A stretch of 21,000 nucleotides of DNA, from contig NC_134842.1 of NCBI RefSeq assembly GCF_965363235.1, positions 33,891,757 through 33,912,756 on the forward strand, given 5' to 3'. Numbering within the stretch: the first letter of the stretch is position 1; each line of letters opens with the position of its first letter. Position numbers and translations under genes: made by a program. The notes under the pieces are model-generated. The model was not told where the DNA came from and did not search any database. It saw only the letters and a program-made list of their open reading frames with translations. Shown in pieces: positions 1-20,280 of this stretch. Source of the DNA: Mytilus galloprovincialis. Lineage: Eukaryota.

Positions 1-83
1 ATTTTACTTATATAACATAATTTTTAATGCATTTGCCAATTTGAAGGCTAAACGAATACCAAACTATTATATTATTTCAACAG

Positions 84-290
84 GTATATGTAAAGGGAAA
101 ACAGACGGGAAAACTTTGCCCTACGTTGGTTGTAGATCGTATTGGAAGTGTCAAGATGGCATCCCTGAACCAATGTGCTGCCCTGCTGGTCAACATTATG
201 ATAATAAACAATCTAAATGTGTTGTTGGAATATCATCAGCATGTTACGGTGTAAGTTGTGATGGTGCAGCCAGAGCTTCCCCTCGTAAGA
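84..290 (+). CDS. Gene 1 internal exon. Encodes a type-2 chitin-binding (peritrophin-A, CBM14) domain. It is entered in phase 1, and the 5' end of the gene lies upstream of the window.
   Basis: Acceptor tttcaacag|GT at 81-83. The frame stays open through ICKGKTDGKTLPYVGCRSYWKCQDGIPEPMCCPAGQHYDNKQSKCVVGISSACYGVSCDGAARASPRK. The cysteine spacing is C-x13-C-x5-C-x8/9-C-x12-C-x7-C, which is the ChtBD2 pattern. The donor AAGA|GTAAGT at 291 leaves phase 1, which is the only phase compatible with the next exon. The track 'ORF' 41-325 starts on TTG and is not a real start. Confidence 0.72.
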
Positions 291-1170
291 GTAAGTACAA
301 TGTATATATATATATCACAGTTTAATTCTTTTAAGTATTTATATCGCTAATTTACATTGGACAAATTCTGCAGTAGACATTAATAATTCCGAAACAATTT
401 TTGATGTTCAAACCAAGACCGTTTTTGTTTATTTCATTGGAAACCTATCTTTTCAAAATAAGACAATCAGTTCTTTATTGGTTAATTTTCAAATATGACA
501 TGAAATGCTATTGCTTACCTCTAAATTTCCTATTGTGACGTCATGAAAAAAGGCGACCATGCCTGATTGTTTTACATAGAAAGAACACACCTTTTTGCCG
601 ATTAATTGAAAAAGAATAATTTAATTTTAAATGTTTAAATCGCCCGGCAAGGTCCGTGTTATAAATTTTGAAAGTGAAATTTCTCAAGTAGGGAAATATC
701 TTTTTAGCATTCGATGGGTAGGTATACGTAGAATCTATATATATATAAAATAAGTAAATAATTAATAAATCTTGCGCATTAAACCCATCATGTGTTCTGT
801 TTGATATTTAGATGTTTTTTAGATTATGCAATAATAAATTAATTGATTGCTGTTTGTTTAACATCCAGTGGCAAATGTTCCATGCATATACGGCACGAAT
901 TCTTACACAAACTACTGAAAGACATATGTAGGAGTTCAGCCTACAGTCTGTTTTAATAGACAGGTCTGGTTTGTCTATATATGACAGACCCCCAACCCCC
1001 GCCACCCTACCCGTCCTGAATAAATTACATGGAGACTAGATATTCAACTTCTGACAAGCAAAATAAATGTCTTCTTGTTTCAGAGGCATGCGATTTAAGA
1101 AAAATTTTATAAATTAAACAGAAATAATTTCACTTTCTGACCAGCAAAAATAAATGTCTTCTTTTTTCAG

Positions 1171-1699: not shown

Positions 1700-1910
1700 T
1701 TGGAAATAAGAAATGTAAACTTAAATATGAGGAATGTGAACTTGGGAGTGAGGAATATCAACGTGGGCGTGAGGAATGTCAACTTGGGCGTGAGGAGTGT
1801 CAAGCTCAGGTTAGAAATGTCAAGTTCGAAGTTTTAGAGGAATGTCAAGTTCGAAACGACCGAGGAATGCCAGATTCGAAGTTAGAAATGTGAAAATAGA
1901 AGTCGTTCAT
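1700..1910. repeat. Intronic minisatellite of about nine degenerate copies of a roughly 21-bp unit GAGGAATGTCAACTTGGGCGT.
   Basis: gaggaatgtgaacttgggagt / gaggaatatcaacgtgggcgt / gaggaatgtcaacttgggcgt / gaggagtgtcaagctcaggtta / gaaatgtcaagttcgaagtttta / gaggaatgtcaagttcgaaacgacc / gaggaatgccagattcgaagtta …. Confidence 0.75.
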
Positions 1911-2175: not shown

Positions 2176-2322
2176 ATGGTTTTTGTCAAAAATGAAAGTG
2201 GCCGCATCCGTGTTCATCCTCAACCTTTATATATGTTATGCATAATTATAAAATACAACTTACATTTCAATATTAAAGATGAACACGAATGCGGCCACTT
2301 TCATTTTACACGAAAACCGTTC
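2176..2322. repeat. Foldback, MITE-like inverted repeat. The arms are about 42 bp and about 90% identical, with a 28/29 core match, and they are separated by about 58 bp.
   Basis: The left arm GGTTTTTGTCAAAAATGAAAGTGGCCGCATCCGTGTTCATC (2179-2218) pairs with the reverse complement of GATGAACACGAATGCGGCCACTTTCATTTTACACGAAAACCG (2278-2319). Confidence 0.6.
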
Positions 2323-2812: not shown

Positions 2813-3222
2813 CTTGTAGTGCAATGATTACCCAAGGTGCAAATGGTCAGTTCTACTATAAGAAAGACATGAATTTACCATTTGGAAAATCAAACTTAGA
2901 CTTGACCTCTGAACCAGATGCTATGACCTTCAATTCAAAATCCCATATCAACATATGGCGTCTTGCCAACCATGAATTTATGGACTCATTCGGGGTTGAG
3001 ATGAATGTGAAACTCACTCCATTTACCGGAAAGAAGGGATCTAAAACTGAACAGATCATGTTAAACTGTCTTCATAGTGACGCAGTACTGGAGGAAGACC
3101 AATGCTCGCCTTCTATGTCTCTACAAGTCAGGAAAGAACCTAAGAAGTACACATTCATCGCGCAATTGTTTACACGCACTGATAGAGGAACAGAATATAA
3201 TAAGACAATCTCCAGCACAGTA
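2813..3222 (+). CDS. Gene 1 exon encoding 137 aa with no domain I recognise (…ACSAMITQGANGQFYYKKDMNLPFGKSNLDLTSEPDAM…TDRGTEYNKTISSTV), phase 1 to phase 0.
   Basis: Acceptor tatatttttcag|CT at 2811-2812. A 160-codon open frame (track ORF 2824-3306) is unusually long for this AT-rich sequence. The first two bases complete a split codon G+CT. The donor GTATGT at 3223 comes just before the frame degenerates into a poly-T, intron-like stretch. Confidence 0.6.
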
Positions 3223-3791
3223 GTATGTTATCTTTTTTTTAACAGTTACAATTTTTTTTTACATTATAATTATGCAGAATTTTTAATCGATTTATCGATT
3301 ATATAACTGTTAGATTTGTCAAAAACAGTAAAATTTCATATTCATAAAAAGGAGATGTGAGTGTATACATAATCCATGGGACGACCACCCAAGGACAAAA
3401 ATTATTGCGGCAATATATTGCGGGTTACATACCTACGGCACTTTGTAATTATGGCGGATCCAGACTACTCTTCTACATTGTTCTAGACTCATTGCGATTT
3501 AGCCTAAGAGCTTAACATCTTGTAAGTTCACTGGTGCATTGTTTATATCTGCATATTGGCCTTTATGTGTGTTTATTGTTGGGTTTGTTTTTCATTTTAT
3601 GTCATTTATGTATATACTACATTTTCTTTTAATCTTTTTTTTTTGTGTCCAGAACATGCATGAAATATTTGCCGCTGCACGTAAAGCAACCAACAAACAA
3701 TTTATCAATTCGTATCTTGTATATACATTTGTATGCATGCAAACTACAGTTTTCATCTGAATTATGAATTTATCCAACGTTTCCATTTTAG

Positions 3792-3976: not shown

Positions 3977-4038
<62 letters not shown>
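3977..4038. repeat. (AT)31 microsatellite, in intron 4 of gene 1.
   Basis: Uninterrupted atat… run. Confidence 0.95.
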
Positions 4039-4042
<4 letters not shown>

Positions 4043-4155
4043 GATATATTAAAAAAAAATTGCTATGAATTATGAACAATTATTTAATGACAAGCAAAAT
4101 TATTTTTAACGATTTGTGAAAAAAATCCAATTCAGTAACTTTTTTTCTAAATTAG

Positions 4156-5142: not shown

Positions 5143-5169
<27 letters not shown>

Positions 5170-5360
5170 TCGATTCGTCGTTGGTGTTTCTGTTTGAATT
5201 GTTTACACTAGCATTCGAGGCCCTTTATAGTTTGCTGTTTGGTGTAATCCAAGGCTCCGTGTTGAAGGCCGTACTTTGACCTAAAATTATTTACGTTTTA
5301 CACATTGTAACTTGAAGTTGTCTAATGACATCATTTTACATTGGAGATGGTGTAACAACA
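5143..5360 (-). mobile_element. SINE-like retroposon copy in minus orientation with an A-tail of about 26 nt (T26 on the plus strand at 5143-5168).
   Basis: The reverse complement of 5176-5300 reads …GGTCAAAGTACGGCCTTCAACACGGAGCCTTGGATTACACCAAACAGCAAACTATAAAGGGCCTCGAATGCTAGTGTAAACAATTCAAACAG… followed by poly-A. The same core recurs on the plus strand at 6186-6404. Confidence 0.6.
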
Positions 5361-6185
5361 CGAAAACAAAATAATCTACAAATTTAGAACTACAAAACAA
5401 TAAACGATGGCGTTGTTGGTTTTTTTTTCTTCAAGTACAATAAGAAAAAGCTGAAACATGGCACTCTACATCACGTGTATGCTTTCAATGCCCTCTAAGA
5501 GATAACTGCAAAGGGGTTAGGAACATCTATGTTGAAATCTTTGTAGAAGGTGAACTAAATGTTTATTATACTGTATACATGTATAAAATTACTGAAAATG
5601 GAGGTTTTATGTTCAGTGCCAAAGAAGAAGGCAATACTTTACTATAGGTCTTGAAATATAACACTGGTACATACAAAATGTACATTAGGGAGTTGGTCAA
5701 TTTAGGAGATTTCGGGAGAATTATTGACAAAATATAAAGAATTGAGGAATTACAGAGAATATTGGGCATAACAATAAAGACAAAACAAGCCATAAAGCCT
5801 ACAGAAAACCATCAAAGTACAAGATGATGTCTAGAAATTATTAATATTATCACAAAGAAACTATATAGAGAGTGACAGATTATTAGTTAGGGTTACATTT
5901 AATCTGTCATCGCATACGGTGTTATAGTTAAGTTGAAAGAAAATCAAACCTACCTTATGATTGGCTACCTATGACGGTCCTACACGGTCGGTCCTATATT
6001 TGGTGGTGTTTTGTTTTTGTGGTTTTTTTTTTGCCGTTTCTGGTCATTACTTGCATATCATTCTATTATTATAATATGTCTGCTTTGAATCTTATACTTT
6101 CGGTTTTGGAATGCGCATCTGGTGCAGAACAATTGGTACCATTAATTTAATTCCAGTCTATATCTGATAATAATATATAAATAAG

Positions 6186-7930: not shown

Positions 7931-8814
7931 ATTTTGCACCATGAGGCTGACCCCTAAAATTAGTCTACTTGTTCGGTAAAAATGGACGTCTAACTACGTA
8001 TACACTCAAAAACATATAATTGAACTGAAAATTAAAAATAATAGATATGAAAGACTATAACTAAGATAATAATTTAAAAAACAACACAGCAATACACATA
8101 CATGTAGTATGACTCAGTTTAAAAGAAGCATAAGTCCAATGTCAGAATAGGTCACAACAACTATTTAAGGGATCGGTAGTTGACCCGCTGCATGACTATG
8201 TTTCTGGGCTTTTTCAACATAGTGTTTTACACTCATTTTCCAATTCCATTTTTAATTTTCGGATTTATCATACTCGGCCCATTATGCAGTACCTCCTTAT
8301 TGAATTAGTTGTTGGTTTGTTATCGCCACATTCTGACTAAAATCGGCCCACTATCCACTTGCGTTTCTACAAACGGAAGCAGGTATTATGGGCTGTTTTA
8401 GCCAGAATTTTCGAAAAGAATATGTGTGAAATACTTGCTACTAAACGTTAACCAAACACGCTACCGATCAATCTCTTCTAAAAACAGTCAATTTGACAAA
8501 AGTTAAATAAATGTATAATATATATGGTAGTGGTGAGAATCCGAAATTTTCATCTGATTTGTTTTTCCTAAGGAAATATATCATTTAAAGTTTTCTTAAA
8601 TCCAATTTCAAATTAAGATATTGATACAAGTCCCATTACAATCATTGCTTCCATTTTAGACCTGTGGTCAGTACTTAAATGAGTGACTATGTCAATGCCC
8701 TTTAGGCAACTTGTATTTAAATTGAGACGATCTTAATTTGTCTGTCTTTTATCTATATAATATCTTATCTTACATGTTCATCTCAATCAAATGTTCAATT
8801 AAAAACATTCCTTA

Positions 8815-9108
8815 GGGAGCTACCATTTGATTTTTATGGGGGGGCTAGGATGAAATTTGAAAAAAATAGGCAGGACAGGAGTTTTGAGTAAAAAAAAAAG
8901 GCAGGATGAGACACTTTTTAAAAAAAAAGGCAGGATGACAATTTAGGTAAAAAAAGTCAGGATAAACTAATAAAAAAAAAGGCAGGACCGAATAGAGTGA
9001 AAAATAAAAAGGCAGGACAGAGATTACAACTAAAAAAAAATGCAGGACAAAATTTTTCATCCTAGCCCCCCCCCCCCCCCCCCCCATAAAAATCAAATGG
9101 TAGCTCCC
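8815..9108. mobile_element. Non-autonomous DNA transposon of MITE type, Tourist-like (PIF/Harbinger-like). It has roughly 40-bp terminal inverted repeats and a TTA target-site duplication.
   Basis: The left end GGGAGCTACCATTTGATTTTTATGGGGGGGCTAGGATGAAA (8815-) is the reverse complement of the right end TTTCATCCTAGC(C)20ATAAAAATCAAATGGTAGCTCCC (-9108). Both ends are flanked by TTA (8812-8814 and 9109-9111). The element has no coding capacity. The 83-aa minus-strand ORF in the track is an artefact of the poly-G/poly-C runs. Confidence 0.75.
8865..9052. repeat. Internal tandem array of the MITE: seven degenerate copies of an A8-10-GGCAGGAY-plus-variable-tail unit of about 27 bp.
   Basis: aaaaaaataggcaggacagg…, aaaaaaaaaaggcaggatgag…, aaaaaaaaaggcaggatgaca…, aaaaaaagtcaggataaac…, aaaaaaaaaggcaggaccgaa…, aaaataaaaaggcaggacaga…, aaaaaaaaatgcaggacaaaa…. 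Confidence 0.8.
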
Positions 9109-9308
9109 TTACGAAGCATAATATAATTTGATGATTCATTAAAATTAATGTGTGAAATAAATTCGTTTTATTTTCTATCGCAATTATGTATTTTTGTTTC
9201 TATGGGAAACATGATGGTATTATTATGAAGTGACTCGGATACACCTTTTTTGGTTCTCTCGATAAATATATAAATGTTCTTACTTTAAATAAAACTAATA
9301 TAAACAAC

Positions 9309-9331: not shown

Positions 9332-11337
9332 GACCTTTTCTAGAAGGGAATATTTTAATTTTAAACGAGAAAGTCTATAAAAAAGTTACAGAAACAGAAA
9401 CGAGTTTTGGTTCCATGTAATTGTTGACTTTCCTTTTTCTGAATGGTGATGCTTATCTGGCTCATTCTAACAGTATATATGTGTTTACACATCTTGTTCC
9501 CTATGCCTATGTCTGCAGTGACGTTTTAATATTTAGATAAATGTAATCTTTCATGACTGGTAAATTATTATGTGTTTCAAGATATACAATCAAGTAGATT
9601 TCTTGGAAAAACTGTAATACAGCATTCAATGAATTTTAAACCACATTTTTAGGAGACATTGCGTACGTGAATTTGACAGTCGTCAACGTCACACAAGGAA
9701 AGGGAGACATATTCTCTTTCATTAGTAATTTATAACTTCATCAGCGATAGTAACAATAACTGCATGGAATTTTATTCAACGAATCTTTACAAAACAAAAT
9801 GGCTTTATCCTAAACAGTCATACATAGCACAATCTAATTGACCATATTCGATATACTAATGATAAAAAAAAAACTAATAGATTACAAATACATTAATCAA
9901 ATACAAGTTAAAGAAGACACTTTGAAAAAATAAAACAAACGCAAAGCGGCGCAAACGCAAACGCAATCGAAAAGACAAAGACAATGAAATGTGCATTAGA
10001 CAAATACCCGTATGTCATTCATACAATCTGATGGTAGATATCTAGTGCAATCTTTGTTGATGGTATCTTAGAAAAATGTCATGTACCTGACGCAATGGGA
10101 ACATTGTAGGTGTGTCTTTATTGTGGTTGTAGATTATTATCTAAAGTGTGGGGACAATAAGTGTTGCCACTATTATACACATTAAAATGTTACTCTTATA
10201 TTTACATATAATAGTTAAAACAATTTGGTCTTTAACTTTCATTGTGAAATACCAATTATATAATATATACTATACTGGAGCAAAGTTGTGAATTTAATTT
10301 CCACGATAAGTCATTAGCAGATAAAATGTATTTAATATTCTAGTTAATAATTAATTCTAAGCAAAGGTACATAATACCAATATGATTAATCTCTCTGGAC
10401 AAATATTCCACCGAACAACCATTACTATACACATTATTATAAATCCATCCACATAACTTTTATTAAATATTCAAAACCCCCCGGTGTCGGATGATTTTAA
10501 ACTAATATATTTACAACAATTCTGCAATTACTGTACTAGAAATTCTTTACTAAGAATAGACTTCCAACCATGTTTAGAAAAAAAGAAGATCTTTCTATAA
10601 ACAGACATTCTTATATGGTAAAATAATTTAACTCTTTTTAACTTTTTCGAATAAAAAGATTTAAATATACAATGTAGGTTACCAGTGCAGCAAGTCCAAT
10701 TTGGTAACTTGTTTAACCAAAATAATATCCATACCTAGTTACATTTAGTGCCCTACTTATGTAATGAATTCTACTATTAAGTACTAATGAATATGGATTT
10801 AACATTTTTTTTTTATTATCATTTAATATATTTTAGAACAAACTTTTTATTCAATACCTGAAATTGCCTCTAAGTTATAATAAAAGAAATGAGTTACAAT
10901 TCATCCGATTTATTTCATGTAAATTTGTCTAAACTAGAACAAAACTCCGCTTCCGGTTATGCAAACTTTGTGAAATCGTGCATTTTACTAGACATCAACT
11001 GATGTTATCAAATTTCCACATTTTCCAGGCCGTTACTTTTTACCTAGGGCTACAGAAATTCTTTCCTAAACACATGGCTAAAGTCATCATTTAAAAATGT
11101 CCATTTTTTCTTCACGATAGATTAGGTCCGGTAACTCCTTACACAAAAACGCTCAGGGGAGACTACAAAATGACAATTAATCGCCTATCAGAATCTGAAA
11201 TCTTGAGTTTTCACCCTGATGGAACGAATAATAAATATTGTATAATGTGACAAAGGTTTCCGTCATTAAAAGAAATAGTTCCATGAGAGCGTTCCGTGTG
11301 ATGGTGTCTTGTTAAATTTTCGGTTGAAGTGGATATT

Positions 11338-11460: not shown

Positions 11461-12157
11461 TTAGTTTATACTTTTAGCCGTCAGAAGAAATAAAAAAAAA
11501 AAGAATTTAAAATTCCATGTGTATACTGGATATTCCAGTTTTATTTTCATACACATTTTTGCTTCTATTACCAATATTGCGAAATATTTTGGAGAACTGA
11601 TGTTGATTTTAGAAACTTGTATAATAAAGAAGTATATGAAGAATATATATGGGTGATATTTTAAAGTGCCAGTCTTTGTAAGAATCAGGCAATTTAGGTA
11701 AAAATTAAAACATGATCAGAAAAAACCCACCGAGCTAATCATGCTATTTAATACTAACCATCATCCTGAGTTAAAAAGTGTTAGCCTTTCGTTTGTGTGT
11801 GTCTGGTAATATCAAATAACTAGGTTAGAAAATTGGTTAGAATGATAGCAAATTACAGAGTTATCTCCCTTTATTCGTTAATTTCTAGTGCATTTCAACC
11901 AACTTGTATCTTCTATTACCAAAACAGAACATGGAAATGAATGTTATTTTTGTGCATAACTACATATTATGAACTGAAATCAATGTCAAATTGGGTGGGT
12001 TTTTTTTTTGTCATGTTTTCACCACTGCCTGATTCTTAGGCAGACTGGCACTTAAGTAAAATGCTTGTACACAATGCAACCATTGACCAGTTGGCACCTA
12101 ATATTCCTCAACATTAAGATCTGTAAACTATACGTCAAAAAACGGGACACAAACAAA

Positions 12158-12479: not shown

Positions 12480-12552
12480 ATGATTATGCGGTGGTTAGTA
12501 ACATTAGCAGTGTGCATTGCCACTCTATCAACACTGGGATATTGCCAGATCG
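12480..12552 (+). CDS. Gene 2 first coding exon, encoding a signal peptide (MIMRWLVTLAVCIATLSTLGYCQI+G), exiting in phase 1.
   Basis: ATG at 12480 in a good context (aacaATGa). The peptide has a hydrophobic core, a small-residue cleavage region and the donor ATCG|GTGAGT at 12553. A phase-1 exit after a signal peptide is the classic arrangement for secreted modular proteins. A strong acceptor-like cttttttcag at 12451-12460 immediately upstream hints at a 5' non-coding exon further upstream. Confidence 0.7.
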
Positions 12553-12911
12553 GTGAGTGCTCTCGTAAAAAAAAGTTCCTGCCAAATAATAACCATACTT
12601 TCTTTGTATGCTTGACTTCGAATACATTCGGTCTTAAGCTTACCGGATACAGTTTTGTAAGGTAGATTAAGTGCCACGGTGCGCTCGGAGATTGGTATAT
12701 ATACGCTCTATTTAACTATATATAAAAAGGATCATTCCAATCTTATATTCCAAAAACTCCACTAGATATAAATATTTTTTTATTGTGCAATCGATATTAT
12801 CGATATCAGGTTTGTCTTCTTATATACTTTATAAGATAGAAGAAAAAAGTGAGAATTTATGATTTCAATTTAAAATAGATATGCTTATAATTTTTTTATT
12901 ACTAATTTCAG

Positions 12912-13469
12912 ATAACTGTTTGGACGGCAAAGCAGATATAGTGATAGCTTTAGATGGAACCCGACTAAATACAGCTACGGAACATACCCAATTTGTTTTT
13001 ATGAAAGAGTACATCAAGAAAATTTTGAACAAAATAACACTGAATTTTATCAACGGTACAATGGTTTCTCTTTTTACATACGGGACAACTTCAACGGAGA
13101 TTGCCGACTTCAGTGCTGATAAAAACAGTATACTAACTAAGTTGCAAGCCTTAACATATCCGAGACTTCCAACTCGATATACCAATCTGGCACTAGACCA
13201 CATCACAGAGAAATTTAAGAAATTCAATCGCCGTGGTGTGCCAAGAATAGCCATTATATTTGTAAACGGAAACACAAACGGAGATTTCTCTACGCTAAAA
13301 ATAGCCGCTAAAAAAGCAGCAATAAACGAGAACATTCAAATAATAGCTGTTTCTGCAAATTCCACGTTTGCTGTTCGAGACCTTGACACTATCACAAGCT
13401 ATGTTCCAGGAAGAATCATTTCTGCGGTTTATAGAGATGACGATCCTGATATGGCCGCTGTTTGCCAAT
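12912..13469 (+). CDS. Gene 2 exon encoding VWA domain 1 (NCLDGKADIVIALDGT…IQIIAVSAN…MAAVCQ), phase 1 to phase 1.
   Basis: Acceptor tattactaatttcag|AT. A 186-codon open frame. VWA landmarks are present: a βA strand DIVIALDGT, RYTNLALDH in the TNTG-AL position, a βD strand IAIIFVNGNTNG, and ENIQIIAVSAN. The donor AATG|GTAAGT is at 13470. Confidence 0.85.
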
Positions 13470-14119
13470 GTAAGTTTGAATTATTTTAAAATTTGATTTA
13501 AAAAAATCCAGACATTGGTTTTTAACCTAAATTTATCAATATTTGCATTCTTAATGTTGAAATTTGCATGGAATATATCAATAAGAATATCGTTTAACAA
13601 CATTTTTATGTTTTATCAGAGAAAAAAAATCCTAATTAAAATCGAGTCCTTTGAAAATACAATGAGCAAACTGTCCCTTCTAACTACATATATTAGATAT
13701 AACATGTACAAAAATGTACATTATAGATGCCACATTGAGAATGGTAAAGAAAACAAAAAAACAATTGTATGAAATTTGTGCTATTTTATATATAGTTTTT
13801 AATATTTTTCTAGCTTTGTCTAGAATTATTTGATGCCGTGAAATATATAATGTTTTGTATAGTAATTTTATCTACACTCTAACTTATAGTGATGTTACAA
13901 TGAAATACTTCTTCATTAGATTTTCATGTTTGAAAAATCATAATGATGGTTTAATTTGATTTAAACGTGTTTATATATTTGATACAAATATGCCATTCCT
14001 AATGTCCATCAAAATCCATAAGCCCGAAGAATATGTGTAAAGTTGTAAACACCATACAACTTTTGCTAGACTTCCGAAATTTATTACTATAGCTTTTGAG
14101 TTGTATGTTTTTTTTTCAG

Positions 14120-14149
14120 ATATGATAGGAGGAACTGTCTTGCCGCGAA
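14120..14149 (+). CDS. Gene 2 linker micro-exon of 30 nt (Y-MIGGTVLPR-), phase 1 to phase 1.
   Basis: Acceptor tttttttttcag|AT and donor GAAG|GTAAGT. It is in phase with both flanking VWA exons. It resembles the other two linker micro-exons in length, phase and flanking context. Confidence 0.55.
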
Positions 14150-14661
14150 GTAAGTACCTTTTGAATAGAATTTAATTTTGGATTTAACATGTCTTTTAAT
14201 TGGTTGAAAGTTGTTTTGTCTATCAGCTCATAGACATACTTTTTTCATGAAGCCGTGACCTCTTAAACTTTTTTTCATGATTTCCTCCTTAAAAATAGAA
14301 TTTAGAATTGAATGATAAGGAACGGCTGTAGCATGTTTTCTCTCTATTCAAATAACCTCAAAATATAGTGCACACTTTTAAATAACCTGTATAATGAGGT
14401 TATTTCGGATATACAGAAAACATATTACAGTCACACCGCCATTAGATAATAAAAATTTTGCTTTACGGATTGACAATTTTTACTGATAAAGCGTTACATT
14501 GTGAACATAAATAAAATAAGCAGCCACTTTTAAACATTTCTGAAGAAACAATCGAGTAGAATTTTTATTTCCACTAATTGTGCGATAGCACTGAAACAAA
14601 TTAAAAGCTAGCAAAATGAACATAAAAGAACGGTTACATTACTTTTTTATTTTTATTTCAG

Positions 14662-15210
14662 ATTGTACCGGGAAAGCTCACGTTATTCTCGGCATTGACC
14701 TTTCAACAAAATCCCGGTTCGACATGGCTTTAAATCTTGGGATTGCATTGTTCAGTAACGTACGACAAGTTAGAAGAACATTGTTGTTAAATGATGCTAA
14801 TAACTATGAGTATACTTTTGCCCCTGGTGTGAATTCTAAATCAGAGTTCGGTAAAATTCAAAGCGAGGCAGCCAGCCGTTTGAATTCAGGTTCATATGAT
14901 GCAAAGGGAATGGTGGACAGCTTTGTAAGCGCCTTTAATAAAAGTCTACTAACAACCATGCATATGGCTAGAGTTGCTATTCTTATATCAGACACGGATT
15001 CTGGTTCTCCAACACAGATGAGACAAGCAGTAGATATGCTTCGGAACCAAAACATTAAGTTGATAATCATAGCAGTACAAGCAGAATTTAAGCCAAGTTT
15101 GCAGACTCTTTTAGAACTTACGGAGGAAAACTTACAAAACCAGATAGTAACTTCAGATATGACACTCTCTGTAAGCGGACTCAACCAAGTAATGAACTCT
15201 GTTTGTTATG
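14662..15210 (+). CDS. Gene 2 exon encoding VWA domain 2 (NCTGKAHVILGIDLSTKS…IKLIIIAVQ…NSVCYG), phase 1 to phase 1.
   Basis: Acceptor ttttatttcag|AT at 14659-14661. 183 codons are open. The VWA fold pattern is present (βA strand HVILGIDLS, βD strand VAILISDTDSGS, then KLIIIAV). The donor TATG|GTAAGA is at 15211. Confidence 0.85.
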
Positions 15211-15545
15211 GTAAGACTTTTTATGTATATTTGAATATCAATTTGATTTTATATTCTTCAAAATAAAGCGTGGTTGGTTTCATTTTACATGAACACAACC
15301 AATAGATATAAGTAATAAAACAAATTTAGCTTTTGTTTATATTTCAAAAGAGTAAAGATAAAGACATTTTTATTTCCTACATGACATTAGCTACGTGACC
15401 AAATTATATATGGAAAATCAGACTCCTCTCTTTATAATGTATCGAGTCTTAGAATAAATAAAAAAATCGCTGCCTAGTATATATTAGTTACGGTTATATG
15501 TGCTCATACTTGCAATTGGCTAATCTTTAGCTTTAATACTTTCAG

Positions 15546-16118
15546 CAATTCAAAGATGTCCAGGGGAGATTGACGTCATGATTGCCATGGATACGTCCTA
15601 CAGTATAGCATCTCAACCTGAAAAAGTGCAATTGGTTAAGGCTTATACCAAAATTATTGCCAATAGTTTTATTCACAACAGAGTACATGCAGCACAAATA
15701 GCCATCATTGCGTTTGGTACAAGTGTTTTCCATGTATCGTTCTTTGGGGATAACCTCATTGATATTATTGAAAACATCAACCTTGCTCAACCAATTTCGA
15801 ACGATTATAAAACTAATACAGATATAGCCTTAGACTATATGATCAATAGGACGAACTCAAAGGGACGACCAGGAGTTCCGAAAGTAGCTATTATAGTAAC
15901 AGACGGTAAATCTACAAATGGATTACAAAATCTACAAAACAGTGCTATTAGGGCAGCAATGAACAATTTGATAACTGTAGCCGTGGGAGTTGGGGATGGC
16001 TATATAATGGAAGAATTGAGCAATTTAACCAATGGAATTCAAGAAAATATTATTGAATCTACTTTTGAAGATCTGACATCAATCGCTGCTTCGAAAACAG
16101 TAGATAGATTGTGTTTAT
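15546..16118 (+). CDS. Gene 2 exon encoding VWA domain 3, the only copy with a complete MIDAS (AIQRCPGEIDVMIAMDTSYS…NTDIAL…VAIIVTDGKST…ITVAVGVG…DRLCL), phase 1 to phase 1.
   Basis: Acceptor taatactttcag|CA at 15543-15545. 191 codons are open. All three MIDAS elements are present: DxSxS (DTSYS), T (KTNTDIAL) and D (TDGKST). The donor TTAT|GTAAGT is at 16119. Confidence 0.87.
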
Positions 16119-16629
16119 GTAAGTTCCACGACATTTCAATATTGGACAGTGTTGGCTTGCTGGGGTTTGATACTTTCATTTAATGATACATTCCCATACC
16201 AAATTTTAGCGTCCGAAAAAAACATTATTATGCTTTGGAGTTTACAGAAAAAGAATTTCGTATCAAACCAGAGTTCTGGAAATCTTTTGACGCTGGTGAT
16301 CCATGGGAAAAATCTCCTGATCTTTAAGTTTATTTCTGTTGCAAATTACCAAAACTGTGTCGTTTGAAAAGAAGTCAGTACATAAAACTGGGGGAATTAT
16401 TCCTTTGTTCTAATTATAGTTTTGTAGAATAAATAAACGTGTAATTTACATCCAATGTAGTCTTGGCCGAAGAGGAGTTAAAAATTTTGAAGGAAGTCAT
16501 TTGTTTTTTACACTAGAGTTTAATTGCTTTTAATTCTAAATGCGCAGCATCATAATCTTAAACATAAACTTTGTTATGAAGCTTTATAAAAATCAGCATT
16601 CTAAATAATATTTTTTTTATATTTTGTAG

Positions 16630-16659
16630 TCGCAATAGACGGACAAGAAACGAGTCAAG
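16630..16659 (+). CDS. Gene 2 linker micro-exon of 30 nt (F-AIDGQETSQ-), phase 1 to phase 1.
   Basis: Acceptor ttttttttatattttgtag|TC and donor CAAG|GTATGT. It is the same length and phase as the micro-exon at 14120, and it similarly follows a C-x-C/CxG domain end. Confidence 0.55.
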
Positions 16660-17493
16660 GTATGTTATGTGATTTATAAATAATATTGCATGTATCTGAA
16701 GAAAGCCGTTCATTAATGCTTTGAATTATAAAAATAATAATTTCATCAAGCTTTCATCAGAGAAAAATTGTTAAATAGTTATAATGACTAAAAAAATAAT
16801 TATGTTCTAAAAATTAATTTATACATGATATCAGAACTAACAGAAATCGAGATTAATTACTATATCAAACCCACATCTCTGAAATACGAGAGTGCTAATG
16901 TTGTTTTTCTCCAAATCTAACTAAAGTCTGATTGCTTGGAAGGAACCAACGCACCTTCGGCAAGAAAACTGAAAATCCCTGTCTGTTAAGACTAGAGTCG
17001 AGCGCACCTGCAATGTACAGGTTTCGAACAAACAACCTCGGATTTGAAATACTGCTAGTGATACATTAGTGGAACTACTTTGATCACTAGTCCATTGAGA
17101 CCTCAATGTGCTCATTATATTTCAGTTGAGATATTATCTTATGATATACTAGTAATACAAGATCATTTAACGTTTGTTATCGCTATTTTACAAAATAGTC
17201 CTTTGATCTGACTGACTGATTACTTCCTTTCTCAGCACAGTCGAGTGATATGAAAAAAGTTATCGCTAGAAAAACAGCGCACGTGCCGTTGTCAATGATT
17301 TTAACAACTTCGTCATAAGTTAAACAGCGATAAACAGATTACCATTGGTCATCTCAACTCGATTGCTTTTTGCACTATCACAGTACCGACTCGAGCGAGA
17401 AAATCAATCTCGTTGAGATAACCAACAATAATCTAAATTTATCCATAACAAACACGTTCTTAAAATAATTTCTTGCATTACCTTTTTTATTAG

Positions 17494-17876
17494 TTTGTGA
17501 AGGCGCTGCTCACGTTACGATAGCAGTAGATGTCGGTGATGCAAAGAACTTTGATGAAGTAAAGCTTTTTGCTGCTAAGCTTATAGCAAATCTTAAAGTA
17601 CAAGAAATGTTGGTATCTATTGTAATTGGCAGTACAGGGGCTGAGTATAATTTTCCCGCCAATACTGACAGCAATACTATTCGGAATACTATTTTGAGAT
17701 CTACAAATTCTGACCAAAACATCTACAACCACACTGGTACCATAAATCGTGCAGCAAAGGCATTTGCTGCAAAACCAATCATGCCTAGGATTGTATTGTT
17801 CATCACTGATGGAAAATCGACTAATCCTGCTTCGTCTATAGCTGCTGCTAGAATTGCTGCAACAAATGACATTCAG
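17494..17876 (+). CDS. Gene 2 exon encoding the N-terminal two-thirds of VWA domain 4 (VCEGAAHVTIAVDVGDAKN…HTGTINRAAKAF…IVLFITDGKSTN…ATNDIQ), phase 1 to phase 0.
   Basis: Acceptor ccttttttattag|TT at 17492-17493. The frame is open and is the same frame as track ORF 17607-17882. VWA motifs are present (TDGKST βD). The donor CAG|GTATGA at 17877 comes after a complete codon. Confidence 0.78.
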
Positions 17877-18358
17877 GTATGAATACTTTCTTTTATAAAT
17901 ACGGACATGATATTAGTTCCATTGCCGTAACTATTCTCCAAGATAATCAGAACGCATTTACACGTATGACCCTCAGCGATTCAACATTTTCATATACCAT
18001 ACAAAATGTTCCATTTGCTTCAATATTTGAAATTACGCAAGTGCTTGGTCGATACTGTAGAATTGTGACTAGAGTTACAGTATCTTTTTTTTTATTGCCA
18101 GAATGATGACGTATTATGCTGAACTGAATCAGTTCGATTATGGTATGAAAATCAAACCATAAACCAGATGACAACTTTAAGAAATGTATCCTTGACCACA
18201 GCTTAAACTGTGTAATCTCATCTTATCATTTTGAATTAAGCAATATGTATCTCCCTTAAATTCAAAACTCGGATTCCTTGTCCGGATTTGTCTATCCTCT
18301 GACATTTAGTTTAATCCTCTTTTCAACATTTGTAGTAGATTTTGGATAAAATGAAGAA

Positions 18359-18425
18359 TTGAAACGGGGAATGTTTCAAAGAGACAACAACTCGACCAAA
18401 GAGCAGAAAAATGTCATCAATGGGT
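18359..18425 (+). repeat. Second copy of the GAGACA…CGACCAAAG…CAATGGGTCT repeat, intronic in gene 2.
   Basis: See 7828-7930. Confidence 0.45.
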
Positions 18426-18581
18426 CTATATTCAAATATTTAACCTCATGCTTTACTGTAGAAATGTGTACTTAGTTGTTCAAAATGTGCATCTGGTAAA
18501 TCAAATTTGTACCTTTAATGCTTTTATTTAATCGAAGAACATTATTGCGTAGCATCGTCATTTATTTTCTTTTATTTAAAG

Positions 18582-18738
18582 TTTTTAGCACTTGGTCTAA
18601 TAAAAAAAGATATATCGGCTGTGGATATGAACGAGATAACCGGAATAGCTGGTGGTATTATACAAAATAGATTCGTTATATCAGAGGAAGGTCTACAAAG
18701 TAGTGGTGTAAACCTAGTCATTATGTCTGTCTGTCATG
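18582..18738 (+). CDS. Gene 2 exon encoding the C-terminal third of VWA domain 4 (FLALGLIKKDISAVDMNEITGIA…VNLVIMSVCH+G), phase 0 to phase 1.
   Basis: Acceptor ttttcttttatttaaag|TT at 18580-18581. This is the only phase-0-compatible acceptor; the nearby tttttag at 18588 gives an immediate stop. The sequence aligns with the C-terminal halves of the other VWA copies (…AVG…EL..IT…C-x-G end). The donor CATG|GTATGT is at 18739. Confidence 0.7.
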
Positions 18739-19293
18739 GTATGTATTATAATATCAAAAGCTTCTGAATAGTATTATAGGGGTCACTAACAATTATGATG
18801 TCGCAAAATAGTGAACAATCTCAAGTCGAATCTGGTAAAAATAAGATGTTAACCTGTAATGTAAAGCGTAATGCTGAAGTCTCTTCAAACGAAATACACA
18901 AAAATGCTTAAATTTTTAAAACTTTATTGCTGTTTATTCTAATGCAAATTAGTCTACGGTTAATACAATGCAACCAATGCAATGTAACACTTCCGACCTG
19001 CGCGCGCATTGTCTTATCTGTATTTATTTTCCAGGACTAGGTTTGCTTTTTTTTCAAACCTATAGTTCCCATTTCCTAATTCATTACATTTTTTTGTAGC
19101 ATATGAGAGTCTGTAAAACGCAAAACTCTATGCATTTACGTCAGTACGAAACGAAACTTGTTAAAAACCGTCTGAAGCTGGGAGTTGTTTTAGACACACG
19201 TAAAGGATGCTCAGAATAGTAGTTTCCGTTTCTAAGGGAATGACTTTTACATTTTAATTTATGTATCATTGCATCATATTTATTATTTTGTAG

Positions 19294-19326
19294 CTATAAG
19301 TGATTGGAGTGGAACATCACTACTGA
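19294..19326 (+). CDS. Gene 2 linker micro-exon of 33 nt (A-ISDWSGTSLL-), phase 1 to phase 1.
   Basis: Acceptor tattattttgtag|CT and donor CTGA|GTAAGT. It is in phase with both neighbours and is the third member of the linker micro-exon series. Confidence 0.5.
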
Positions 19327-19639
19327 GTAAGTTTTTATAATTTAAAAAAATAAGGTTTTTAATTTAAATTTAAATTTTAGCTACGATGATTCCTCATTTG
19401 TGTTTCATTTTCTGATATTTCTTACATTATATTTCAATATCCAACTGGTCTCGTTATGTGAAATTTGTATTTATTTATTTTTTACATATTGAGATACATG
19501 TATTATTGTGACAAAAATGTTTGGTATCAAAGTTATGAAAGATGCTTTAACTTTCGTTTTAATATTTATGGGTTCCAACAATTATACGCCAAGAATTTTA
19601 GGAATTTGTACAACATGATGTATTGTTTATTAATTTTAG

Positions 19640-20167
19640 AATTTATGGGTCCTGCCGAAGTATCACTAATGATTGACTCCTGCGATGGAACCATGCACAC
19701 CTTCTACCGTGCATTTGCTAAAGATGTTCTTAGATATATCAACGTGGAGGACAACAAGGTCAAATTAAATGTAGCCTCGTTTTGCTCTAAAGTGGAACCA
19801 ATCAGCTCATATCAGGACATGTATTATATTCATCCTAGTCTAAAATATGAAAATATAATGGCGAACAAGCAATGGACAGCATCGCAAATAATCGGCGACT
19901 ACATCCTGCATTTTAATGATATCCGCTCATCGAATAAAATTGGAATTGTCTTAGTAAACGATGCCACTAATGAACCGAATTTAAGACTAATTGCACAGTT
20001 TGCTTACCAGCAAGGCATTACTCTTTTTGCAATTGGAATTGATTACGGACAGCAGAACCTTGAAATGAAGTTGGCACAAATAAGTCCTAACGGCTATATG
20101 AAATTGCCTCTTAATCAACTTAACGTTATGGGGATGAACTTCCTTATTACCAACTTTATGGCAATGG
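19640..20167 (+). CDS. Gene 2 exon encoding VWA domain 5 (K-FMGPAEVSLMIDSCDGT…IGIVLVNDATN…ITLFAIGIDYG…NFMAMG), phase 1 to phase 1.
   Basis: Acceptor ttaattttag|AA at 19638-19639. 176 codons are open (track ORF 19465-20190, whose N-terminus is intronic). It has the VWA βA, βD and C-terminal patterns. The donor ATGG|GTATGT is at 20168. Confidence 0.82.
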
Positions 20168-20280
20168 GTATGTTAATTTTTAAATGTTGATTTGGTTTAT
20201 TTATGTGATATGAAAAATTTCAGTTGTTTGTGTAATGTGTGATGAGCATATGGTTCCTTTTTTAGCTAGTAGATACAAGA

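What the first reader, a model, noticed from the sequence alone, without database searches (positions are those of the whole stretch)
8812..9111. Intact Tourist-like MITE (TTA target-site duplication) with an internal satellite and asymmetric G7 versus C20 homopolymers in its terminal inverted repeats
The terminal inverted repeats are perfect apart from the homopolymer length, and the TTA target-site duplication is present. Together these indicate a relatively recent insertion by a PIF/Harbinger-type transposase. The interior is not a deleted transposase gene. It is a 7-copy tandem array of A-rich units of about 27 bp centred on GGCAGGAY, a MITE-with-minisatellite structure. The G7/C20 asymmetry inside the otherwise identical repeats indicates replication slippage after insertion, or an assembly artefact in a homopolymer. 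A 20-nt poly-C or poly-G tract can form G-quadruplex or i-motif structures and can act as a fragile or recombinogenic site in the intergenic region between the two matrix genes.
Basis: seen in the sequence. Interest (0 to 1): 0.55.

Follow-up and report, generated by a model that had tools for sequence, protein, structure and literature searches.

The report
Ordinary Tourist-like MITE with internal minisatellite
This is a small, non-coding "cut-and-paste" transposon copy (a MITE) sitting between two extracellular-matrix-type genes of a marine invertebrate; other copies with the same ends and the same TTA/TAA target duplication exist elsewhere, so it is real but of a common, well-known kind.

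Summary
Window 8815-9108 is a 294-bp element. It has a 41-nt left terminal inverted repeat and a 54-nt right one, identical except for G7 versus C20. It is flanked by TTA on both sides and carries seven A-rich 25-31-bp units around GGCAGGAY.

Three further copies turned up in unrelated marine metagenome contigs, each about 95% identical and each in a different flank. Similarity stops exactly at GGGAGC.../...GCTCCC, and every flank seen (6 of 6) is TTA or TAA. One of these copies is full length, has a TAA/TAA duplication, the same seven units, and a 7-nt tract in both arms.

The array therefore belongs to the family, and G7/C7 is the likelier original state on the one symmetric copy seen. The C20 is a derived expansion. 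A second copy has at least 12 residues, so expansion is not unique to this locus.

The best explanation is a Tourist-like MITE moved in trans by a PIF/Harbinger transposase and its Myb-like partner. No autonomous partner, host copy number, empty site or poly-C length could be checked, because no host genome was searchable. The G-quadruplex and fragile-site idea is untested.

This is a new member of a known kind and of low interest.

The parts
8812..8814 (.). [quoted passage not shown]
   Evidence: Read directly. It matches 9109-9111. The other copies are flanked by TAA, which is TTA read on the other strand.
8815..8855 (+). Left terminal inverted repeat, 41 nt: GGGAGCTACCATTTGATTTTTAT + G7 (8838-8844) + CTAGGATGAAA
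   Evidence: Inverted-repeat pairs I1 and I3. The 25-mer is found once per strand with 0 expected by chance. It is identical in L001 and L003, including the G7.
8844..8868 (+). 'Unit 0': the inner repeat and adjacent spacer (GCTAGGATGAAATTTGAAAAAAATA), which align with the array units
   Evidence: Alignment A2: AGGA is invariant across units 0-7 and the A-run sits in register.
8869..9057 (+). Internal array of seven A-rich units (25-31 bp). Each has a GGCAGGAY core (five exact, two with one mismatch), 8-13 variable nt and an A7-A10 run. The last unit runs into the right repeat.
   Evidence: The same seven units occur in the same order in copy L003.
9055..9108 (-). Right terminal inverted repeat, 54 nt: TTTCATCCTAG + C20 (9066-9085) + ATAAAAATCAAATGGTAGCTCCC
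   Evidence: In L003 the tract is CCTCCCC (7 nt). In L002 it is at least 12 nt (CCCCCTCCCCCC, at the start of the contig).
9109..9111 (.). [quoted passage not shown]
   Evidence: Read directly.

Best explanation
Window 8815-9108 is one copy of a multi-copy, non-autonomous class II DNA transposon: a Tourist-like MITE.

**Inferred from knowledge of the family.** A PIF/Harbinger DDE transposase and its Myb/SANT/MADF-like DNA-binding partner, encoded by an autonomous element elsewhere in the host genome, recognise the 41-nt inverted repeats and subterminal motifs. They excise the element and re-insert it at a TWA trinucleotide, and repair of the staggered cut duplicates that trinucleotide.

**Shown here.**
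- The inverted repeats and the 3-bp TTA duplication.
- Independent copies elsewhere with exactly the same boundaries and TWA flanks.
- No coding capacity.

**Internal array.** The array of GGCAGGAY/A-tract units is a family feature, because it is present unchanged in another copy. It is not a change specific to this locus. Its register begins inside the inner part of the left repeat, so it most likely arose by tandem duplication of the subterminal segment in a progenitor (inferred).

**Homopolymer.** The tract was most likely 7 nt in both arms originally; one symmetric full-length copy shows this. The right-arm tract in this copy expanded to about 20 by replication slippage. That happened either after insertion or in its immediate source copy.

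**Location.** The copy lies in the roughly 9-kb gap between a CBM_14-containing gene and a multi-VWA gene, about 3.4 kb upstream of the VWA gene's signal-peptide-like first ORF. No effect on either gene is shown.
For: - **Anatomy:**
- **Second full-length copy:** L003 (ENA ERZ6864376, minus strand, 5334-5612) shows 3.9% substitutions against the window copy. It is flanked TAA/TAA, has the same seven units, and has G7 on the left and CCTCCCC on the right.
- **5' partial copy:** L001 517-678 is 95.7% identical, is preceded by TAA and has G7.
- **3' partial copy:** L002 1-35 is followed by TAA, and its flank contains a reverse-transcriptase-like coding stretch (identified by reading the translated sequence; not run against Pfam).
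- **Boundaries:** similarity ends at the repeat tips in every copy and the flanks are unrelated.
- **Target specificity:** the chance of four independent sites all being TWA at this base composition is 3.6e-5.
- **Extended target preference:** in the six half-sites, C occupies position -2 in 5 of 6 (uncorrected p = 5e-4) and T occupies position -4 in 5 of 6. PIF/Harbinger elements are known to prefer an extended target of 9-15 bp (PMC2836001).
- **Family definition from the literature:** a 3-bp duplication that is usually TAA/TTA, a requirement for two proteins, and Tourist-like MITEs of 100-500 bp (PMC2836001). The Myb-like protein of Harbinger3_DR binds a 9-bp subterminal motif (PMC9710019).
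- **Host plausibility, if the host is a bivalve (host not identified):** MITEs are abundant in bivalve genomes and 58 autonomous PIF-Harbinger families have been curated there (PMC10294476).
- **No coding capacity or known RNA:** no Pfam domain in the only long ORF and no Rfam family.
Against: - No autonomous PIF/Harbinger element with matching ends was found or could be sought, because no host genome is searchable with these tools. The superfamily assignment is therefore indirect.
- Only three extra copies were recovered, two of them partial. They come from metagenome assemblies whose host species is unknown.
- Copy number in the window's own genome is unknown, and there is no second copy in the 21-kb window.
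- One carrier contig, L001, is chimeric with bacterial DNA.
- No empty site was recovered.
- The flank consensus does not match the maize PIF palindrome CWCTTAGWG (that consensus is recalled from memory).
Confidence: 0.86

Rival explanations
1. It is a MITE, but of another superfamily: Stowaway/Tc1-mariner (TA duplication), piggyBac or Kolobok (TTAA), hAT (8 bp), or CMC/EnSpm (3 bp with no sequence preference).
For: The superfamily was assigned without seeing a transposase. 3-bp duplications also occur in CMC elements, and an AT-rich genome (32% GC) makes TWA fairly common (7.8% of trinucleotides).
Against: - **TA:** in the window copy the base after ...GCTCCC is TT, not TA. Shifting the boundary by one base gives TT/TA in the window and TA/AA in L003.
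- **TTAA:** it is absent on both sides.
- **8 bp:** the flanks ATTCCTTA and TTACGAAG do not match.
- **Non-specific 3 bp:** all four independent sites being TWA has p = 3.6e-5.
- **CMC:** the ends are GGGAGC..., not CACTA-like.
Confidence: 0.07
2. It is a unique palindromic or cruciform structure, or a local duplication-inversion, and not a mobile element. This is the alternative the first reader named.
For: There is no second copy in the window. None was found in viral contigs or in bacterial and archaeal genomes.
Against: Three other copies sit in unrelated flanks with identical boundaries and TWA flanks. One is full length with its own TAA/TAA duplication.
Confidence: 0.01
3. It is a tandem-repeat-carrying non-autonomous Helitron/Helentron of the pearl/DTC84/Cg_HINE type, which is the usual carrier of internal tandem repeats in bivalves.
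For: It has an internal tandem array between short flanking modules, as in DTC84 and Cg_HINE (PMC3879986, PMC7492417). An element with that layout abuts the truncated copy in L001: 168-bp repeats followed by a GACG/GACT microsatellite.
Against: Those elements have short, imperfect inverted repeats, a putative AA duplication or none, core repeats of about 160 bp and a microsatellite module. This element has 41-nt perfect terminal inverted repeats, a clean 3-bp TWA duplication, 25-31-bp units and no microsatellite.
Confidence: 0.03
4. The C20 tract is a sequencing or assembly artefact and the true copy is symmetric (about C7).
For: Homopolymer length is error-prone on every sequencing platform. 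No Logan short-read contig carries this copy's ORF. L002 breaks off inside its own tract.
Against: An over-call of 13 bases is far beyond usual homopolymer error. An independent copy in a different assembly (L002) also has at least 12 residues. The same assembly carries other long simple tracts: T26 at 5143-5168 and (AT)36.
Confidence: 0.15

Closest known systems
Tourist-like MITEs of the PIF/Harbinger superfamily (e.g. rice mPing, maize mPIF/Tourist)
   Same: It is small (294 bp, within the 100-500 bp range) and non-coding. It has terminal inverted repeats and a 3-bp TTA/TAA duplication. It occurs in multiple copies with exact boundaries. There is a hint of a target preference that extends beyond the trinucleotide (PMC2836001).
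   Different: There is no sequence similarity to the plant families. The host is an unidentified marine invertebrate. The repeats are long (41 nt, against roughly 15 nt typical of PIF elements; PMC9710019) and contain a G/C homopolymer. The interior is a minisatellite. The autonomous partner is unknown.
MITEs that carry internal tandem repeats (Xenopus Xstir/MITE-borne repeats; bivalve DTC84/pearl; Crassostrea Cg_HINE)
   Same: A short array of tandem repeats rides inside a non-autonomous element and is dispersed with it (PMC6947457; PMC3879986 and PMC7492417).
   Different: DTC84, pearl and Cg_HINE have core repeats of about 160 bp, a microsatellite module, an AA duplication or none, and are now placed with Helentrons. 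This element has 25-31-bp units, perfect long inverted repeats and a TWA duplication, so the resemblance is in layout and not in mechanism.
Subterminal repeated binding motifs of Harbinger3_DR, bound by its Myb-like protein
   Same: A short motif (AGGAY, extended to GGCAGGAY) is present in the inner part of both inverted repeats and is reiterated internally. In Harbinger3_DR the Myb-like protein binds a 9-bp subterminal motif (PMC9710019).
   Different: Here the motif is repeated seven times in one orientation across the whole interior. No binding protein is known and no binding was tested. The resemblance is only a lead.

Membership tests
MITE (non-autonomous class II element) | Terminal inverted repeats at both ends | tested here: met
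   The arms are 41 and 54 nt and 100% complementary apart from the homopolymer length.
MITE (non-autonomous class II element) | Small size and no transposase coding capacity | tested here: met
   The element is 294 bp. The longest ORF is 83 aa, is of low complexity and has no Pfam hit. Its only database relative is the same ORF in another copy.
MITE (non-autonomous class II element) | Multiple dispersed copies whose similarity ends at the inverted repeats | tested here: met
   Three further copies (L001, L002, L003), each about 95% identical, lie in unrelated flanks. Copy number in the host genome itself was not measurable.
PIF/Harbinger (Tourist-like) | 3-bp target-site duplication with TWA (TTA/TAA) specificity | tested here: met
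   The window copy has TTA/TTA, L003 has TAA/TAA, L001 has TAA and L002 has TAA. That is 6 of 6 flanks and four sites, with p = 3.6e-5 under a non-specific target.
PIF/Harbinger (Tourist-like) | Target preference that extends beyond the trinucleotide (9-15 bp) | tested here: inconclusive
   C occupies position -2 in 5 of 6 half-sites and T occupies position -4 in 5 of 6. There are only six half-sites and the p-values are not corrected for multiple positions.
PIF/Harbinger (Tourist-like) | Ends shared with an autonomous element that encodes a DDE transposase and a Myb/SANT/MADF-like ORF | not testable with these tools
   No host genome is searchable. The repeat patterns gave 0 hits in viral contigs and prokaryotic genomes and no hit in the curated bivalve class II library text that is held.
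PIF/Harbinger (Tourist-like) | Precise empty sites (a single TWA) at orthologous or allelic loci | not testable with these tools
   Exact-protein look-ups of the flanking small ORFs found no contigs covering the site.
Stowaway / Tc1-mariner MITE | TA target-site duplication | tested here: not met
   In the window copy the right flank begins TT. No boundary shift gives TA on both sides in both full copies.
pearl/DTC84/Cg_HINE (Helentron-type carriers of tandem repeats) | Core repeats of about 160 bp plus a microsatellite module, short imperfect inverted repeats, and an AA duplication or none | tested here: not met
   The units are 25-31 bp, there is no microsatellite, the inverted repeats are 41-nt and perfect, and the duplication is TWA (definition from PMC3879986).

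The most novel reading that the evidence does not exclude
The internal array may not be passive cargo. It could be a multimerised copy of the subterminal binding motif (AGGAY within GGCAGGAY, spaced about three helical turns apart by phased A-tracts) for the Myb-like partner of the mobilising Harbinger. That would make this family an unusually good substrate for, or a sink of, its transposition machinery. Alongside this, the G/C homopolymer embedded in the inverted repeat may expand preferentially in one arm: left arms read 7, 7, 7 and right arms read 20, at least 12, and 7. That would be a systematic, strand-asymmetric instability built into a transposon end.
Probability: 0.12. Interest if true: 0.4.

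Novelty: new member of a known kind. Interest (0 to 1): 0.13.

Why it matters
It matters little beyond annotation.
- It should be masked as a repeat and not read as a regulatory or structural oddity of the matrix-gene locus.
- It may be a useful presence/absence marker, and its poly-C tract a length-polymorphic one, in a region of tandem VWA/chitin-binding genes.
- The family adds an example of a TWA-type MITE that carries a short minisatellite. In bivalves (the suspected but unconfirmed host group), the carriers of internal tandem repeats described in the papers read here are Helentron-type elements.
- If the internal motif array proved to be reiterated transposase-partner binding sites, it would bear on why some MITE families amplify so well. 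Nothing here shows that.

Tried and rejected
- **Rfam:** a scan of the whole window at gathering thresholds found nothing.
- **Exact-pattern scans:** the repeat 25-mer, the repeat 20-mer and an internal 30-mer gave 0 hits in IMG/VR viral contigs. The 20-mer and the internal 30-mer gave 0 hits in bacterial and archaeal genomes.
- **Protein route:** searching with the element's 83-aa ORF gave one hit, which led to the full-length copy L003. The other reading frames are too broken to use.
- **Empty site or allelic contigs:** exact look-ups of ORFs at 9361-9492, 8468-8584 and 8845-9096 found nothing on record.
- **Host identification:** the VWA exon and the ORF at 2824-3306 hit only unnamed Logan proteins. 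A literature search for the run and assembly accessions found nothing. The Logan contigs are only 92-94% identical at the DNA level, which points to a related species or a divergent haplotype.
- **Literature:** a full-text search for the repeat sequence found nothing. A search of the supplementary TE libraries of the bivalve mobilome paper found no match, and the held class II library file is only 13 kb.
- **Rejected readings:** Stowaway (TA), piggyBac/Kolobok (TTAA), hAT (8 bp), Helentron-type carrier and unique palindrome. Reasons are given under the rival explanations.
- **Not run:** The search of protein representatives, because its 50%-identity library carries no context and could give neither copy number nor flanks; structure prediction, which is not relevant to a non-coding element.

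Full report
**1. What is in the sequence**

Window 8812-9111 reads TTA, then a 294-bp element, then TTA.

- **Left end (8815-8855):** GGGAGCTACCATTTGATTTTTAT, G7 (8838-8844), CTAGGATGAAA.
- **Right end (9055-9108):** the exact reverse complement, except that the homopolymer is C20 (9066-9085).
- **Chance:** It occurred 0 times in 100 dinucleotide-preserving shuffles.
- **Interior:** seven A-rich units of 25-31 bp lie between the arms. Each has a GGCAGGAY core, 8-13 variable bases and an A7-A10 run. Five cores are exact; the other two read GTCAGGAT and TGCAGGAC.
- **Motif enrichment:** five of the six GGCAGGAY occurrences in the 21-kb window, counting both strands, are inside the element.
- **Folding:** as single-stranded DNA the element forms a long terminal stem, dG -44 kcal/mol, z = -5.65.

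One addition: the inner 11 nt of the left repeat plus the following 14 nt (8844-8868) align with the units as a 'unit 0'. The array therefore begins inside the inverted repeat.

**2. Is it a transposon? The multi-copy test**

The window holds no second copy. Prokaryotic genomes and viral contigs hold none either.

- **L001** (marine metagenome ORXM01024247)...ACACA-TAA-GGGAGCTACC... followed by 162 bp that are 95.7% identical to the window copy, including G7 and the first four units.
- **L002** (ERZ887851): starts inside the right arm (CCCCCTCCCCCC-ATAAAAATCAAATGGTAGCTCCC), followed by TAA. Its flank contains a stretch that reads like a reverse-transcriptase fragment (by eye from the translation; not run against Pfam).

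A protein-route search with the element's only long ORF (83 aa, minus strand) found one relative, P0001. Its contig, L003 (ENA ERZ6864376, 11.3 kb), carries a full-length copy on its minus strand at 5334-5612. That copy reads ...ATTTCC-TAA-GGGAGC...GCTCCC-TAA-AAGAAA... It has the same seven units in the same order, G7 on the left and CCTCCCC on the right.

Similarity between copies stops at the repeat tips, and the flanks are unrelated. All six observed flanks are TTA or TAA. At the window's base composition, the chance that four independent sites are all TWA is 3.6e-5.

**3. Which kind of transposon**

PIF/Harbinger elements and their Tourist-like MITEs are defined by these features (PMC2836001):

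- a 3-bp duplication that is usually TAA/TTA;
- usually precise excision;
- a target preference extending over 9-15 bp.

The duplication criterion is met. The extended-preference criterion is only hinted at: C at position -2 in 5 of 6 half-sites (uncorrected p = 5e-4) and T at position -4 in 5 of 6.

Other superfamilies fail on the duplication. TA does not fit the window copy's right flank under any boundary shift. TTAA and 8-bp duplications are absent. A non-specific 3-bp duplication is unlikely given the TWA specificity.

Bivalve carriers of tandem repeats of the pearl/DTC84/Cg_HINE type have a different layout: repeats of about 160 bp, a microsatellite, and an AA duplication or none. They also use a different, Helentron mechanism (PMC3879986, PMC7492417).

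The one defining feature I could not test is an autonomous element with the same ends. No host genome is searchable here, and the curated bivalve class II library text that is held gave no match. The literature supports host plausibility only if the host is a bivalve, which was not established: MITEs are abundant in bivalves and 58 autonomous PIF-Harbinger families have been curated there (PMC10294476).

**4. The interior**

The 83-aa ORF has no Pfam match, and no Rfam family matches the window. L003 has the same seven units, so the array was already present in the progenitor of these copies. It did not form at this locus.

The register of the array starts in the inner repeat. The simplest origin is therefore tandem duplication of the subterminal segment; this is inferred. 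The Myb-like protein of Harbinger3_DR binds a 9-bp subterminal motif (PMC9710019). The reiterated GGCAGGAY cores might be multiplied binding sites, but that is a lead and not a result.

Between copies the cores are not specially conserved. In L003, unit 3 reads GTCAGGAT and unit 4 reads GGCAGGAT, which is the reverse of the window copy. That is what one expects of neutral decay after insertion.

MITEs carrying tandem repeats are a known phenomenon (PMC6947457).

**5. The homopolymer**

| Arm | Window | L003 | L001 | L002 |
|---|---|---|---|---|
| Left | G7 | G7 | G7 | not covered |
| Right | C20 | 7 (CCTCCCC) | not covered | at least 12 (CCCCCTCCCCCC, cut by the contig end) |

The original state was therefore most likely symmetric at 7/7, on the one full-length copy seen, and the C20 is a derived expansion. 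A second copy is also expanded. The expansion could therefore have been inherited from a source copy instead of arising after insertion, and the data cannot tell these apart.

An over-call of 13 bases is larger than ordinary homopolymer error, and the assembly holds other long simple tracts: T26 at 5143-5168 and (AT)36 at 3977-4049. The exact length still needs read-level confirmation.

A run of 20 G on the minus strand satisfies the formal G-quadruplex requirement of four G3 runs with 1-nt loops, which needs 15 nt. The quadruplex, i-motif and fragile-site idea is thus permitted by the sequence, but nothing here tests it.

**6. Age**

Perfect inverted repeats do not date an insertion, because both arms are copied from the source element. 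A better, though thin, indicator comes from the 161 columns where three copies overlap. There the window copy has 1 private substitution, against 7 in L003 and 4 in L001. The window copy and L003 differ by 3.9% substitutions overall. Together with the intact duplication, this fits a relatively young copy. The other copies may come from a different species, so this is only indicative.

**7. Context**

- **Genome:** the window is eukaryotic, with 32% GC.
- **Upstream gene:** ORFs at 41-325 (CBM_14 chitin-binding domain) and 2824-3306.
- **Downstream gene:** a signal-peptide-like ORF at 12480-12665 is followed by VWA-domain exons from 12.9 to 20 kb.
- **Position of the element:** it sits in the roughly 9-kb gap between the two genes, about 3.4 kb upstream of the second gene's likely start. 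'Intergenic between two matrix-type genes' is plausible but not proven without transcripts.
- **Host:** it could not be named. The VWA exon's exact protein is found only in unnamed Logan contigs (SRR15505940/41/47, SRR22865492, SRR29182347). These are 92-94% identical to the window at the DNA level, with synonymous differences in the exon. They come from a close relative or a divergent haplotype.

**8. Verdict**

This is a real, intact Tourist-like MITE that carries a family-wide minisatellite and a locus-specific or lineage-specific poly-C expansion in one arm. It is a new member of a well-known kind; whether it is already in Repbase or Dfam could not be checked. Interest is low.

The most novel reading still open has two parts. 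The first is that the array is a set of multiplied binding sites. The second is that the homopolymer is unstable in one arm only. Either would need the host genome and an experiment.

Noticed in passing
window 11662-12055: A second, unrelated MITE-like element of 388 bp (11665-12052). Its inverted repeats are AGTGCCAGTCTTTGTAAGAATCAGGCA (27 nt, 3 mismatches). It is flanked by TAA (11662-11664) and TAA (12053-12055), so it is also Tourist-like. It lies about 430 bp upstream of the signal-peptide-like ORF at 12480.
   Followed up: partly
window 2178-2318: A 141-bp hairpin with 55-nt arms that are 82% complementary (GGTTTTTGTCAAAAATGAAAGTGGCCGC...). It has no clear target-site duplication and no Rfam match. 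It may be a decayed MITE or a foldback, and it lies between exons of the upstream gene.
   Followed up: no
L001 679-1331: The truncated MITE copy is abutted by 2.9 copies of a 168-bp satellite (742-1229), a (GACGGACAGACT)n microsatellite (1235-1269) and a 17-bp duplicate (1298-1331). This layout resembles pearl/DTC84/Cg_HINE Helentron-type elements. The contig then continues into bacterial-looking coding DNA (judged by eye from the sequence; not scanned), so it is either a nested insertion or a chimeric assembly.
   Followed up: partly
window 14883-16288 versus L004-L008: Five Logan contigs from five sequencing runs encode the identical VWA exon protein but are only 92-94% identical at the DNA level, with synonymous changes in the exon. 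All lose similarity to the window at 16288. Three of them (L004, L005, L008) share an identical 173-bp tail that is absent from the window; L006 carries only its first 58 bp, and L007 ends before the break. This suggests a structural difference, probably a repeat insertion, between the window genome and a close relative or haplotype.
   Followed up: partly
window 41-325, 2824-3306, 12480-20190: The flanking genes look like two tandem matrix-type genes. Upstream there is a CBM_14 (peritrophin-A chitin-binding) exon and a 160-aa ORF with no Pfam match. Downstream there is a signal-peptide-like ORF followed by several VWA-domain exons. From memory, this architecture resembles mollusc Pif/BMSP-like shell-matrix proteins. 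That was not tested.
   Followed up: partly
window 5143-5168 and 3977-4049: Other long simple tracts occur in the same window: T26 and (AT)36. The assembly therefore does carry long low-complexity runs apart from the C20.
   Followed up: no
window 1728-1880: Two adjacent short tandem arrays, with periods of 21 and 25 bp (3.6 and 2.6 copies), lie between the CBM_14 exon and the ORF at 2824. They may be coding repeats or an intronic minisatellite.
   Followed up: no
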